64,000 bases of DNA, from NCBI RefSeq assembly GCF_003334315.1, contig NZ_QOWR01000008.1. One strand, written 5' to 3'. The position numbers and the translations under genes are program-made. The notes under the pieces were generated by a model. That model saw only the letters and a list, made by a program, of their open reading frames with translations. It had not been told where the DNA came from and did no database searches. Origin of the DNA: Escherichia coli (GTDB lineage Bacteria > Pseudomonadota > Gammaproteobacteria > Enterobacterales > Enterobacteriaceae). Shown piece by piece: positions 17,265 through 23,722 of this stretch. Positions within the stretch are counted from its first letter, which is position 1. Each line of letters opens with the position of its first letter.

Positions 17265-18470
17265 ATGTCATGGCAGCAATTCAAACACGCCTGGTTGATT
17301 AAATTCTGGGCACCCATCCCTGCGGTCATCGCGGCGGGTATTCTCTCCACTTACTATTTTGGCATTACTGGCACCTTTTGGGCTGTCACGGGTGAATTTA
17401 CCCGTTGGGGCGGTCAGCTCCTGCAGCTGTTTGGCGTCCATGCTGAAGAGTGGGGTTACTTTAAAATTATCCATCTGGAAGGATCGCCATTAACCCGCAT
17501 CGACGGGATGATGATCCTCGGTATGTTTGGCGGCTGCTTTGCCGCAGCGCTGTGGGCCAACAATGTCAAACTGCGCATGCCACGCAGCCGTATCCGCATT
17601 ATGCAGGCCATCATTGGCGGCATTATCGCTGGTTTTGGCGCGCGTCTGGCAATGGGCTGTAACCTGGCAGCGTTCTTTACCGGTATTCCTCAGTTCTCGC
17701 TGCATGCCTGGTTCTTTGCCATCGCCACTGCCATTGGTTCATGGTTTGGCGCGCGCTTTACCCTGCTGCCCATCTTCCGTATTCCCGTGAAAATGCAGAA
17801 AGTTTCTGCCGCCTCACCGCTGACGCAAAAACCGGATCAGGCGCGGCGTCGTTTTCGTCTCGGGATGCTGGTCTTTTTCGGTATGCTGGGCTGGGCGCTG
17901 CTCACGGCGATGAACCAACCAAAACTGGGGCTGGCAATGCTGTTTGGCGTCGGCTTTGGTTTACTGATTGAACGTGCGCAAATCTGCTTTACTTCGGCGT
18001 TCCGCGATATGTGGATCACCGGACGTACCCATATGGCGAAAGCAATCATTATCGGTATGGCGGTGAGTGCCATCGGGATCTTCAGTTACGTACAGTTAGG
18101 CGTTGAACCCAAAATCATGTGGGCGGGACCAAACGCGGTAATTGGTGGTTTACTGTTTGGTTTTGGCATCGTGCTGGCAGGCGGCTGCGAAACCGGCTGG
18201 ATGTACCGCGCGGTAGAAGGCCAGGTGCACTACTGGTGGGTCGGTCTGGGCAATGTGATCGGCTCGACGATTCTGGCGTATTACTGGGATGATTTCGCTC
18301 CGGCGCTGGCCACCGACTGGGACAAAATCAACCTGCTGAAAACCTTTGGCCCGATGGGTGGCCTGCTGGTGACATATTTGCTGTTGTTTACTGCGCTGAT
18401 GTTGATTATCGGCTGGGAAAAACGCTTCTTCCGCCGTGCGGCACCGCAGACTGCTAAGGAGATCGCATGA
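17265..18470 (+). CDS. yedE: YeeE/YedE-family inner-membrane transporter (selenium/sulfur-compound transport family)
   Basis: 401-aa polytopic membrane ORF with internally duplicated GxCxxG-like motifs (AMGCNLAAFFTGIP, LAGGCETGWMY). Confidence 0.9.
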   Translation: MSWQQFKHAWLIKFWAPIPAVIAAGILSTYYFGITGTFWAVTGEFTRWGGQLLQLFGVHAEEWGYFKIIHLEGSPLTRIDGMMILGMFGGCFAAALWANNVKLRMPRSRIRIMQAIIGGIIAGFGARLAMGCNLAAFFTGIPQFSLHAWFFAIATAIGSWFGARFTLLPIFRIPVKMQKVSAASPLTQKPDQARRRFRLGMLVFFGMLGWALLTAMNQPKLGLAMLFGVGFGLLIERAQICFTSAFRDMWITGRTHMAKAIIIGMAVSAIGIFSYVQLGVEPKIMWAGPNAVIGGLLFGFGIVLAGGCETGWMYRAVEGQVHYWWVGLGNVIGSTILAYYWDDFAPALATDWDKINLLKTFGPMGGLLVTYLLLFTALMLIIGWEKRFFRRAAPQTAKEIA

Positions 18471-18700
18471 AAAATATCGTTCCTGATTACCGCCTTGATA
18501 TGGTGGGTGAACCCTGCCCTTATCCGGCAGTCGCAACTCTTGAGGCGATGCCGCAGTTAAAAAAAGGGGAAATCCTGGAAGTGGTGAGCGACTGTCCACA
18601 GTCGATCAATAATATCCCACTGGATGCGCGTAATCACGGCTATACGGTGCTGGATATTCAGCAAGACGGGCCGACCATTCGTTATTTAATTCAGAAGTAA
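18467..18700 (+). CDS. yedF: TusA-like sulfurtransferase-fold protein
   Basis: 77-aa ORF with TusA CPxP motif (GEPCPYPAV); 4-nt overlap with yedE. Confidence 0.92.
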   Translation: MKNIVPDYRLDMVGEPCPYPAVATLEAMPQLKKGEILEVVSDCPQSINNIPLDARNHGYTVLDIQQDGPTIRYLIQK

Positions 18701-18806
18701 TCCCTCATTCCCGCTGTGGCCCACTGCGGGAACATCGTTGCCTCTGACACATAGATTTTACCCACCCCCTCTCCTATTCTTTTCAGTATGATCTCAGGAG
18801 GTTTCT

Positions 18807-19475
18807 ATGTGTGGACGCTTTGCCCAATCCCAAACGCGTGAAGATTACCTTGCGCTTCTCGCGGAAGATATTGAACGCGATATTCCCTACGATCCCGAAC
18901 CCATTGGCAGATACAACGTCGCGCCGGGAACCAAAGTTCTTCTGCTCAGTGAACGTGATGAACACCTTCATCTGGATCCGGTTTTCTGGGGATATGCTCC
19001 CGGATGGTGGGATAAACCGCCGCTGATTAACGCCCGCGTAGAAACTGCGGCCACCAGTCGTATGTTTAAACCGCTCTGGCAACATGGTCGGGCAATCTGT
19101 TTTGCCGATGGCTGGTTTGAGTGGAAAAAAGAAGGCGACAAAAAACAGCCTTATTTTATCTATCGCGCTGATGGACAACCTGTTTTTATGGCCGCGATAG
19201 GTAGCACACCGTTTGAGCGCGGTGACGAAGCCGAAGGATTTTTAATTGTCACTGCAGCAGCAGACCAGGGTCTGGTATATATTCATGACCGCCGCCCGCT
19301 GGTTCTGTCGCCAGAAGCTGCACAGGAATGGATGCGGCAAGAGATTGGCGGTAAAGAAGCATCAGAAATTGCTACCAACGGCTGTGTGCCAGCAAACCAG
19401 TTCACCTGGCACCCGGTATCGCGCGCGGTAGGTAATGTCAAAAACCAGGGCGCGGAGTTAATTCAACCTATCTGA
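18807..19475 (+). CDS. yedK: SRAP-domain abasic-site processing protein (DNA-protein crosslink former)
   Basis: 222-aa ORF starting MCGRFAQSQ... with catalytic Cys2 typical of the SRAP/HMCES family. Confidence 0.92.
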   Translation: MCGRFAQSQTREDYLALLAEDIERDIPYDPEPIGRYNVAPGTKVLLLSERDEHLHLDPVFWGYAPGWWDKPPLINARVETAATSRMFKPLWQHGRAICFADGWFEWKKEGDKKQPYFIYRADGQPVFMAAIGSTPFERGDEAEGFLIVTAAADQGLVYIHDRRPLVLSPEAAQEWMRQEIGGKEASEIATNGCVPANQFTWHPVSRAVGNVKNQGAELIQPI

Positions 19476-19868
19476 TAAGCCTGGAGATTATTGATCAACA
19501 ATACTGCGTCATAAGAAATCTCTATTAGACAAAGTAGACGCTCCTTCCACATGCGCCACAAGAAACCTCTATTCCAGTGACACAATTACGCCTGATTATT
19601 TCCCTAGCCCGGAATATGAATAAAAACATCAACAAAGATTAAATTATTCAAACGTTACTGTTGCGTCTGCGGTCGTAGCAACATCCGACGTGGTGATGAG
19701 TGTTAAAAGAGACACTCTGATGTTCAGAGGGGTTATCGCGTTTACGGATCGTGGATGGCAGAAAACTTTCAGGATCAGGTATCCATTTTAAACCAGAAAT
19801 AGGGTGAGTTTGCCCCATCCATGCCCCACGCGGGCAGATGGGATGTAATTACCAACAGGTTACAAAAC

Positions 19869-20183
19869 CTACACCTGCATGGACATCACTTCCTGATACG
19901 CCGCCACCAGCTTATTACGCACCTGAATCCCCATTTGCATAGAAACTGAGGCTTTTTGCATATCGGTCATCACATCGTTTAACGCCACGCCGGGTTCACC
20001 GAGGGTGAATTTTTCTGCCTGCGTGCGGGCGGCTGTTTGTGTATCGCTTATGCGATCGAGCGCGGCGTGCAGCTGCCCGGTAAAACTAATGGTCGGTTGT
20101 GGCAGTGATTCCTGTGCACGCGCACTCATCGCCGTAGCCTGTAACTGGCTGATAACCCCTTCAATCCCCTGTATCGCTGACAT
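19869..20183 (-). CDS. fliE: Flagellar hook-basal body complex protein FliE
   Basis: Trimmed to [24 protein letters not shown]... (104 aa). Confidence 0.92.
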
Positions 20184-20397
20184 TTTCGTCTCCCGGATAA
20201 TTTCTGGTAGCAAAGCCTACCAGTAAGTCAATAAGACAAAGGCGCTAAATAGCAACAAAAAAACGGGTTTATTGGCGGATAGAAAAAAACGAAAGCACAA
20301 ATAATGGGAGCGTCAATTTTTCGAGTTTGCTGACCCGGGAGTGAGTCTTGTTCCACTTTGCCAATAACGCCGTCCATAATCAGCCACGAGGTGCGCG

Positions 20398-23722
<3,325 letters not shown>

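What the first reader, a model, noticed from the sequence alone, without database searches (positions are those of the whole stretch)
19476..19868. Compact yedK-fliE junction lacking the K-12 insert
Only about 390 bp of non-coding DNA separates yedK from fliE. As I recall, K-12 carries extra genes and an integrase remnant here (yedL, yedN, intG), so this strain appears to hold the ancestral, unoccupied state of a known insertion hotspot. The spacer is moderately AT-rich and contains an imperfect palindrome near 19820-19850 (cccatccatgcccc / gggcagatggg) that may be a fliE regulatory site or a recombination scar.
Basis: partly seen in the sequence, partly recalled or inferred. Interest (0 to 1): 0.3.

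Follow-up and report, generated by a model that had tools for sequence, protein, structure and literature searches.

The report
Decayed prophage scar beside fliE
The short yedK-fliE spacer is real, but it is not an empty site: it holds the worn-down end of an old prophage (integrase tail plus attachment core) at a phage integration site in the last codons of fliE, which is ordinary genome decay.

Summary
yedK ends at 19475, fliE (minus strand) ends at 19869, and the spacer is 393 bp at 43% GC. K-12 has about 2.2 kb there (yedL, yedN', intG').

- K-12 differs by two separate blocks, yedL (603 bp) and yedN (about 1.2 kb), not by one insert.
- The intG remnant is also present in the window. Positions 19713-19850 encode the last 46 codons of a lambdoid integrase (80% identical to phage IdasGreatGrand).
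- The remnant is followed by phage-type DNA and a ~21-bp att core that overlaps the fliE stop and its last six codons.

Truly empty sites (Citrobacter, Kosakonia and others) have yedF 50-100 bp from fliE, with no yedK and no integrase. Twelve other species and eight E. coli genomes carry a full integrase or prophage at this point.

The compact form occurs in about 1015 of 5426 complete E. coli genomes. A 14-bp direct-repeat footprint suggests it lost yedL secondarily. The palindrome is strong only in this lineage. Its left arm is a conserved motif, probably an integrase arm-site, and nothing supports a regulatory role.

The feature is ordinary, already annotated and of low interest. A side result is that yedK itself is probably domesticated prophage cargo.

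The parts
18467..18700 (+). yedF, the last gene on this side that is native and conserved in all outgroups
   Evidence: ORF list. Homology with other Escherichia, Salmonella and Citrobacter runs up to about 18717 and then stops.
18708..18732 (+). yedF terminator-like hairpin (TTCCCGC...GCGGGAA), which marks the native boundary of the variable segment
   Evidence: The hairpin is conserved after yedF in all loci compared, and sequences diverge right after it.
18807..19475 (+). yedK (SRAP / SOS response-associated peptidase), intact at 222 aa. It lies inside the variable yedF-fliE segment and is probably domesticated prophage cargo.
   Evidence: ORF. It is absent at this locus in E. whittamii, E. 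albertii and the cryptic-clade Escherichia genomes. Homologs of 79-84% aa identity sit next to att in phages PHB10, Gifsy-2 and a Klebsiella prophage. In E. cloacae L053, yedK follows the orphan core and P' arm of the fliE-integrating phage family.
19476..19534 (.). Spacer segment 1: the yedK 3' flank, shared with K-12. It contains direct repeat DR1, AAGAAATCTCTATT, at 19513-19526.
   Evidence: blastn window 18700-19534 = K-12 L001 3282-4118.
19535..19601 (.). Spacer segment 2: equals the K-12 yedL-yedN intergenic piece. It contains DR2, AAGAAACCTCTATT, at 19560-19573. K-12's 603-bp yedL block would sit between 19534 and 19535.
   Evidence: blastn window 19535-19601 = L001 4722-4788, 94%. The repeat occurs in 9 of 1000 shuffles.
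19602..19712 (.). Spacer segment 3: equals the K-12 spacer between yedN and intG. K-12's ~1.2-kb yedN block would sit at about 19594-19610. In a 100%-identical relative, IS1 is inserted at 19607-19615.
   Evidence: blastn window 19598-20300 = L001 6001-6701, 95.4%. Junction. IS1 relative.
19713..19850 (+). Integrase 3' remnant (the 'intG' equivalent): the last 46 codons (aa 386-431 of 434) of a lambdoid tyrosine integrase, with an in-frame stop at 19800-19802
   Evidence: tblastn gives 80% identity, E = 7e-17 against the whole window. At the DNA level it is 86% identical to phage IdasGreatGrand. PGAP calls a partial 'integrase' at the same place in compact-junction genomes.
19809..19829 (+). 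TTTGCCCCATCCATGCCCCAC, a candidate integrase arm-type binding site.
   Evidence: A near-identical variant (TTTGCCCCATATATGCCCCAC) lies on the other side of the core in the phage attP, so the motif occurs at L007 2621-2641 and 2829-2849. The window 21-mer matches the att end of Gifsy-2 exactly. It is invariant in occupied sites of other genera. Binding is inferred and was not tested.
19810..19848 (.). Imperfect palindrome / hairpin, strong only in this allele
   Evidence: Folds give -18.3 / -19.3 kcal/mol here, against -7.7 / -12.2 in K-12 and -12.3 in the phage. No U-tract follows. The right arm is variable in the alignment.
19853..19867 (.). Phage-type DNA (end of the P arm) directly downstream of the fliE stop. 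It contains the left half of an AGGTT-N4-AACCT inverted repeat.
   Evidence: It is identical to phage attP and absent from empty sites.
19868..19888 (.). att core CCTACACCTGCATGGACATCA: the fliE stop codon, its last six codons and one flanking base
   Evidence: It is the only stretch shared by phage attP, empty attB sites and occupied sites. It is duplicated at both ends of the live prophage in UTAK-1 and of the island in E. cloacae L053. It occurs once in the window.
19869..20183 (-). fliE. Its 3' end lies within the att core.
   Evidence: ORF and annotations of matching genomes.

Best explanation
The 393-bp spacer is the residue of an old prophage or island that integrated at an attB site overlapping the last codons of fliE.

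Shown:
- Window 19713-19888 consists of an integrase 3' remnant, phage P-arm DNA and the ~21-bp core fused to fliE. This is the same int-end + core + fliE layout as the fliE-side junction of a live prophage.
- A family of lambdoid and P22-like phages uses this core. It includes IdasGreatGrand, CobraSix and prophages in Citrobacter, Enterobacter, Leclercia and E. coli UTAK-1.
- The true empty site has yedF next to fliE.
- About 95% of complete E. coli genomes carry the same remnant.
- Incoming phages integrate at the core beside the remnant.

Inferred:
- The ancestor of E. coli acquired such a prophage with yedK as the first gene on the P' side. The interior was then deleted, and yedK was kept.
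- The rest of the spacer (19476-19712) is leftover inter-cassette DNA. K-12 and O157 still hold two single-gene, moron-like cassettes in it: yedL (a GNAT acetyltransferase) and yedN/espR4 (a type III secretion effector with leucine-rich repeats).
- The compact form most likely arose by loss of those cassettes. For yedL it leaves two 14-bp direct repeats with 33 bp of cassette termini between them.
- The palindrome is not a functional unit. Its left arm is a probable integrase arm-type site, and its right arm became complementary only in this lineage.
For: Integrase remnant:
- tblastn of the K-12 intG peptide finds phage integrases at 78% identity, E = 5e-20.
- The match is to the C-terminal end of a 434-aa integrase.
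- Window 19713-19850 matches aa 386-431 at 80% identity.

Shared DNA and the core:
- Window 19705-19888 equals the phage int end plus attP at 86%. The match runs through the int stop into the last 20 nt of fliE and then diverges.
- Empty sites share only CCTACACCTGCATGGACATCA with the phage.

Outgroups:
- At least 15 species have yedF about 50-100 bp from fliE.
- 12 species have a full-length integrase (11 at 84-87% identity, one at 67%) 33-42 bp after fliE.

Live use of the site:
- 8 E. coli genomes have a full integrase at fliE.
- UTAK-1 has a complete P22-like prophage bounded by two core copies, with the old remnant pushed inward.

Prevalence of the remnant:
- 5160 of 5426 genomes match the end of the int probe.
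- 5350 of 5426 match the junction probe.

yedK as cargo:
- yedK is absent at this locus in other Escherichia species.
- Phage homologs lie next to att.
- The E. cloacae island is bounded by a 19-bp core duplication, and its far end reads orphan core, P' arm, then yedK.

Cassette structure and loss:
- K-12 differs by two separate blocks.
- All four combinations exist: none, yedL only, yedN only and both.
- The direct-repeat footprint is described and occurs in 9 of 1000 shuffles.
- A yedL homolog sits at the same locus in a divergent Escherichia lineage.
Against: - The window has no second (orphan) core copy and no significant P'-arm trace between yedF and yedK. The far junction of the supposed ancestral prophage is therefore not demonstrable in E. 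coli, and yedK could have arrived separately.
- The indel junctions show no clear target duplications or strong microhomology for yedN.
- The direct-repeat argument for yedL has an alternative reading: the window-type arrangement is ancestral and UTAK-1 is a repeat-mediated deletion.
- The states were not mapped on a genome phylogeny, and recombinant alleles exist. LH10-b-1 combines the emrE island with a window-type right side, which blurs the direction of change.
- The arm-site function of the motif rests on its repetition and conservation only.
Confidence: 0.8

Rival explanations
1. One reading: the compact junction is the ancestral, unoccupied state of the hotspot, and K-12 later received one insert carrying yedL, yedN and intG.
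For: The window does lack yedL and yedN. The compact form is common, in 1015 of 5426 genomes.
Against: The integrase remnant and phage P-arm DNA are present in the window. K-12 differs by two separate blocks, not one. True empty sites have yedF next to fliE without yedK or integrase.
Confidence: 0.03
2. A weaker version: the site is an old prophage scar, but the compact arrangement is ancestral with respect to yedL and yedN. These would have been added later as separate moron-type cassettes, possibly in phage genomes before transfer, and spread by homologous recombination of the flanks.
For: Each block is one gene with its own flanks, which is moron-like. All four presence/absence combinations exist. 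The region is unusually divergent between strains at 94-95% identity, and recombinant alleles occur. There is no strong deletion microhomology at the yedN junction.
Against: The window keeps two 14-bp direct repeats that flank the yedL block in K-12, whereas UTAK-1 has one copy. Such a repeat is rare by chance, 9 of 1000 shuffles. A yedL homolog is at this locus in another Escherichia lineage. yedN alleles of 85% identity at the same position suggest long residence.
Confidence: 0.25
3. The palindrome at 19810-19848 is a functional RNA hairpin, the transcription terminator or 3'-end stabiliser of fliE, or a protein-binding regulatory site.
For: It lies 20-60 nt downstream of the fliE stop on the fliE sense strand and folds at -19.3 kcal/mol, z -2.2. 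After the ancient integration, fliE lost the hairpin it shares with yedF in empty sites, so some phage-derived structure must now end its transcript.
Against: No U-tract follows it, and the terminator scan did not call it. In K-12 and in the phage the same stretch folds no better than shuffled sequence, because the right arm varies. The 139-nt 3' region as a whole has z +0.15. There is no Rfam match. The fliE promoter is on the other side of the gene.
Confidence: 0.1

Closest known systems
E. coli K-12 intG pseudogene, labelled 'cryptic prophage PR-G' in NC_000913.3
   Same: It is the same remnant at the same place. Window 19598-20300 aligns with K-12 at 95.4%, including the whole intG stretch.
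   Different: In K-12 the remnant frame is open for 92 codons and runs antisense into fliE. In the window it carries an in-frame stop. K-12 also keeps yedL and yedN' to its left.
Prophage junctions of lambda-family tyrosine integrases that target the 3' end of a protein gene and carry a replacement 3' end (for example phage 21 and e14 at icd; from general knowledge)
   Same: The integrase 3' end abuts the junction. The core is shared between phage and host, and the phage copy reconstitutes the last codons of the target gene. The core is duplicated at both prophage ends.
   Different: The target here is fliE. In the window only the int-side junction survives, and the prophage interior and the other junction are gone.
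Phages IdasGreatGrand (PP925829) and CobraSix (NC_071003), and the P22-like prophage of E. coli UTAK-1
   Same: They share the integrase family (78-80% aa over the remnant), the core and the arm motif. UTAK-1 shows integration at this exact site.
   Different: They are complete, functional phages. The window holds only the last 46 codons plus the P arm and core. These particular phages do not carry yedK.
The int-attP-yedK (SRAP) end module of lambdoid phages: PHB10, Gifsy-2 and Klebsiella ST846-OXA48phi9.2
   Same: A yedK-like gene is the first gene across attP from int, often with umuDC nearby. In Gifsy-2 an effector gene (sseI) lies beside it, much as yedN/espR4 lies near yedK in K-12 and O157.
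   Different: The PHB10 integrase is only 44% identical, and its attP lacks the fliE core. The link to the fliE site comes from E. cloacae L053.
The Salmonella yedF-fliE interval carrying SL1896 (PMC5122947)
   Same: The same pair of flanking genes encloses lineage-specific DNA. That paper already lists yedK, yedL, yedN and intG as the K-12 content of this variable interval.
   Different: The gene content is different, and no integrase remnant was detected in the two Salmonella loci examined.

Membership tests
Prophage junction scar of a lambda-family tyrosine integrase | An integrase gene or remnant homologous to phage tyrosine integrases lies adjacent to the junction | tested here: met
   Window 19713-19850 is 80% identical to aa 386-431 of the IdasGreatGrand integrase. 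172 phage records match the K-12 version, the best at E = 5e-20.
Prophage junction scar of a lambda-family tyrosine integrase | A core sequence is common to phage attP and bacterial attB | tested here: met
   CCTACACCTGCATGGACATCA is shared by phage attP, the window and empty sites in Citrobacter and other genera.
Prophage junction scar of a lambda-family tyrosine integrase | Related genomes have an empty site lacking the element | tested here: met
   At least 15 outgroup loci have yedF about 50-100 bp from the fliE stop and no integrase. Enterobacter has yedD next to fliE.
Prophage junction scar of a lambda-family tyrosine integrase | The core is duplicated at both ends of the integrated element | tested here: inconclusive
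   This is met for the live prophage in UTAK-1 and for the E. cloacae island. It is not met for the window's own remnant, which has only one core copy and no orphan copy within 6 mismatches between yedF and the integrase remnant.
Prophage junction scar of a lambda-family tyrosine integrase | Arm-type integrase binding sites flank the core | tested here: inconclusive
   The motif TTTGCCCCAT..ATGCCCCAC lies on both sides of the core in phage attP and is conserved across genera and in Gifsy-2. Protein binding cannot be tested here.
Prophage junction scar of a lambda-family tyrosine integrase | The site supports integrase-mediated recombination | not testable with these tools
   There is only indirect evidence: 8 E. 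coli genomes and 12 other species have a full integrase or prophage at exactly this point.
Unoccupied (ancestral) attB | No phage-derived DNA lies between the flanking native genes, and the sequence matches outgroup empty sites | tested here: not met
   The integrase remnant and P-arm DNA are present. The DNA left of the fliE stop differs from every empty site. yedK is absent from outgroup sites.
Intrinsic (Rho-independent) terminator, tested for the palindrome | A G+C-rich stem-loop | tested here: met
   It folds at -19.3 kcal/mol on the fliE sense strand.
Intrinsic (Rho-independent) terminator, tested for the palindrome | A U-tract immediately after the stem | tested here: not met
   The stem is followed by CAAACUCACCC. 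The consensus scan did not call it.
Intrinsic (Rho-independent) terminator, tested for the palindrome | The pairing is conserved in related sequences | tested here: not met
   The K-12 and phage versions fold no better than shuffles, and the right arm is variable.

The most novel reading that the evidence does not exclude
In E. coli the whole yedF-fliE interval is phage-derived. That would include yedK, the model bacterial SRAP/HMCES enzyme. On this reading yedK was the first P'-side cargo gene of a prophage that integrated into the fliE 3' end before E. coli diversified. It was kept while the rest decayed, and fliE has since carried a phage-supplied 3' end and 3' flank.
Probability: 0.55. Interest if true: 0.3.

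Novelty: already known. Interest (0 to 1): 0.15.

Why it matters
It matters little for new biology. It is a common allele (about 19% of complete E. coli genomes) of a variable region that is already annotated as a cryptic prophage remnant.

It is still useful as a correction. 'Short spacer' does not mean 'empty site' here, because the real empty state lacks yedK altogether.

It also defines a concrete, still-used phage attachment site in the last codons of fliE. And it suggests that the well-studied yedK gene is domesticated prophage cargo, which bears on how its regulation and distribution are read.

Tried and rejected
- NCBIfam scan of the 66-67-aa remnant peptides gave no family; the peptides are too short.
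- The sigma-70 promoter scan of 19400-20450 found no sites. The terminator scan found only a weak minus-strand site at 19729-19715 and did not call the palindrome.
- An Rfam scan of 19350-20450 at E <= 1 gave nothing.
- The search for a second att core copy found only the one at fliE in the window. Nothing lay within 6 of 21 mismatches between yedF and the integrase remnant in the window or in K-12.
- Local alignment of the yedF-yedK spacer against the P' arms of L053, IdasGreatGrand, UTAK-1 and the PHB10 attP gave scores at the shuffle mean. Only the ~45 bp just upstream of the yedK ATG is homologous.
- PHB10 as the direct source of the E. coli arrangement is rejected. Its integrase is 44% identical and its attP has no fliE core.
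- The indel junctions showed no target-site duplications for the yedL or yedN blocks and only weak microhomology for yedN.
- The repeat finder with 8-nt seeds missed the 14-bp direct repeat, which has a central mismatch. It was found by eye and tested by shuffling.
- Literature searches for fliE with prophage, integration site or attB, and for yedK with fliE, found no description of this attB. The only relevant text notes that the yedF-fliE interval varies between Salmonella and K-12.

Full report
**Observation**

The window has an intact 222-codon yedK at 18807-19475 (+). fliE is on the minus strand at 19869-20183, which leaves a 393-bp spacer at 19476-19868. The spacer is 43% G+C against 49.4% for the window.

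The imperfect palindrome exists, with arms at 19814-19826 and 19832-19842. It folds at -18 to -19 kcal/mol, better than nearly all shuffles.

K-12 MG1655 has yedL, the yedN pseudogene and the intG pseudogene between yedK and fliE, about 2.2 kb. The observation and the recollection are both correct.

**Comparison with K-12**

K-12 does not differ by one insert. It aligns with the window in three pieces:
- Window 18700-19534 matches up to 59 bp past yedK.
- Window 19535-19601 matches the 67-bp piece between yedL and yedN.
- Window 19598-20300 matches everything from just right of yedN through intG and fliE.

K-12 therefore has two extra blocks. One is 603 bp with yedL, between window positions 19534 and 19535. 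The other is about 1.2 kb with yedN, at about 19594-19610. The intG stretch is present in the window.

**What the right part of the spacer is**

The K-12 intG peptide matches phage integrases, the best at 78% identity and E = 5e-20 (Escherichia phage IdasGreatGrand). The match is to the extreme C-terminus of a 434-aa protein. In the window, 19713-19850 is 80% identical to residues 386-431, with one in-frame stop.

At the DNA level the phage matches window 19705-19888 at 86%. The match runs through the integrase stop codon and into the last 20 nt of fliE, and then diverges. The phage attP therefore carries a copy of the fliE 3' end.

**Outgroups define the empty site and the core**

Eighty loci around fliE were collected from other species and fall into these groups:
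- At least 15 species of Citrobacter, Kosakonia, Phytobacter, Buttiauxella and others have yedF 50-100 bp from the fliE stop. They have no yedK and no integrase.
- Twelve species of Citrobacter, Enterobacter, Leclercia, Pseudenterobacter and Kosakonia have a full-length integrase starting 33-42 bp after fliE. Eleven are 84-87% identical to the phage integrase and one is 67%.
- Several others have partial integrases.

Aligning the fliE stop regions shows that empty sites share only about CCTACACCTGCATGGACATCA with the phage. That stretch is the fliE stop, its last six codons and one flanking base, window 19868-19888. Everything to the left of the fliE stop in the window is phage-type DNA.

**The site is still in use**

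Eight complete E. coli genomes have a full integrase abutting fliE. In strain UTAK-1 a complete P22-like prophage of about 38.7 kb lies between fliE and the old integrase remnant. It is bounded by two core copies. The inner junction reads old remnant, core, then a phage P' arm nearly identical to that of IdasGreatGrand.

About 95% of complete E. coli genomes carry the remnant next to fliE.

**States of the interval in E. coli**

Counts with state-specific probes, out of 5426 complete genomes:

| State or block | Genomes |
|---|---|
| Compact junction | 1015 |
| yedL block present | 1287 |
| yedN block present (annotated espR3/espR4 type III effector in EHEC) | 1531 |
| emrE-ybcL-ybcM island abutting a shorter integrase remnant | 2596 |

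Also seen:
- yedL only.
- yedN only.
- A compact junction interrupted by IS1 in a strain otherwise 100% identical to the window.
- yedK truncated beside IS200/IS605-family transposase genes in ST131.

**yedK is inside the variable segment**

In E. whittamii, E. albertii and cryptic-clade Escherichia genomes, homology with the window stops about 17 bp after yedF and resumes only at the integrase remnant or core. yedK is absent there, and a DUF1398-like ORF sits next to yedF in its place. A paper on Salmonella also lists yedK among the K-12-specific content between yedF and fliE (PMC5122947).

YedK homologs of 79-84% identity occur in temperate phages directly across attP from the integrase (PHB10) or at the prophage end (Gifsy-2, a Klebsiella prophage). 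umuDC or effector genes are often nearby.

The strongest link is E. cloacae DSM 26481. A 4.8-kb island sits between fliE and yedD and is bounded by a 19-bp core duplication when compared with empty Enterobacter sites. It contains an integrase remnant, umuC fragments and yedK. Its far end reads orphan core, IdasGreatGrand-like P' arm with the arm motif, about 130 bp, then the yedK start.

For E. coli itself the corresponding far junction could not be found. The cargo origin of E. coli yedK is therefore an inference, which I put at about 0.55.

**Is the compact form ancestral or derived with respect to yedL and yedN?**

K-12 has 14-bp direct repeats (AAGAAATCTCTATT and AAGAAACCTCTATT) flanking the yedL block. 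UTAK-1, which has no yedL, has a single copy. The window has both copies with 33 bp between them, and those 33 bp equal the first 8 and last 25 bp of the K-12 block. Such a repeat arises in 9 of 1000 dinucleotide shuffles of the spacer.

The simplest reading is that the window descends from a yedL-bearing form by an internal deletion. A yedL homolog (79% aa) at the same locus in a divergent Escherichia lineage points the same way, as do yedN alleles of 85% identity at the same position.

The yedN junction shows only weak microhomology, and recombinant alleles exist. I put secondary loss at about 0.6 and 'never had the cassettes' at about 0.25-0.3.

**The palindrome**

Its left arm is part of TTTGCCCCATCCATGCCCCAC (19809-19829). 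A near-identical variant lies on the other side of the core in the phage attP. The 21-mer is invariant in occupied sites of other genera and matches the att end of Gifsy-2 exactly. This is the pattern expected of an integrase arm-type site, but that is inferred.

The right arm varies. In K-12 and in the phage the region folds no better than shuffled sequence. No U-tract follows, and no Rfam family matches.

The spacer is downstream of fliE, so it cannot hold the fliE promoter. The strong hairpin is a feature of this lineage's allele with no evidence of function.

**Verdict**

The junction is a reduced form of a known cryptic-prophage remnant at an active phage attachment site. It is not an unoccupied ancestral site.

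It is a common, already annotated allele, so novelty is 'already known' and interest is low. The one point of wider interest is the probable prophage origin of yedK.

Noticed in passing
window 18807-19475; L053 12154-13170; L089 2436-4675: yedK lies inside the lineage-variable yedF-fliE segment and is absent there in other Escherichia species. In E. cloacae it directly follows the orphan core and P' arm of a fliE-integrating prophage, and in phage PHB10 it is the first gene across attP from int. The model SRAP gene of E. coli looks like domesticated prophage cargo.
   Followed up: partly
L004 8684-11804; L005 9945-11804 (equivalent to just left of window 19732): In about 48% of complete E. coli genomes (2596 of 5426), emrE-ybcL-ybcM lie next to fliE, abutting a shorter integrase remnant. 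In K-12 these genes sit in the DLP12 prophage. In those strains the multidrug exporter emrE therefore sits at the fliE locus.
   Followed up: partly
window 19607-19615; L003 1832-2529: Strain VTB97420v is 100% identical to the window across this junction except for an IS1A insertion with a 9-bp target duplication at 19607-19615.
   Followed up: yes
L005 8533-9788: In ST131 strain 5506, yedK is annotated as a C-terminally truncated pseudogene next to a partial helix-turn-helix CDS and an IS200/IS605-family tnpA, so this lineage lacks a functional YedK.
   Followed up: no
window 19878-19880 (fliE Ser codon); L001; L092 39530-39550: The penultimate Ser codon region of fliE has two synonymous alleles that differ at two bases: GGA (TCC) in the window and the phage, and GCT (AGC) in K-12. 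In UTAK-1 the fliE copy has the phage allele and the orphan core keeps the K-12-type allele, as expected from exchange at the core. Both alleles also occur in empty sites of other genera.
   Followed up: partly
window 19513-19526 and 19560-19573: There is a 14-bp direct repeat, AAGAAA(T/C)CTCTATT, with 33 bp between the two copies. In K-12 the two copies flank the yedL block, and UTAK-1 has a single copy.
   Followed up: yes
window 19857-19870: A perfect inverted repeat, AGGTT-ACAA-AACCT, spans the fliE stop codon. The equivalent AGGTTA-N3-AACCT is present in occupied sites of other genera, so these may be core-type integrase binding sites.
   Followed up: no
L011 10261-10665; L012 13012-13416; L013 10766-11170: Non-coli Escherichia species carry a conserved 134-aa ORF (DUF1398-like by recollection, not scanned here) next to yedF, at the position where E. 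coli has yedK.
   Followed up: no
L008 2869-4539; L089 7116-8666; L090 1877-3522; L053 10866-11915: umuC/umuD-like translesion polymerase genes recur on the P' side of attP in this group of phages, together with or in place of yedK. This points to a DNA-damage-tolerance cargo module at that prophage end.
   Followed up: no
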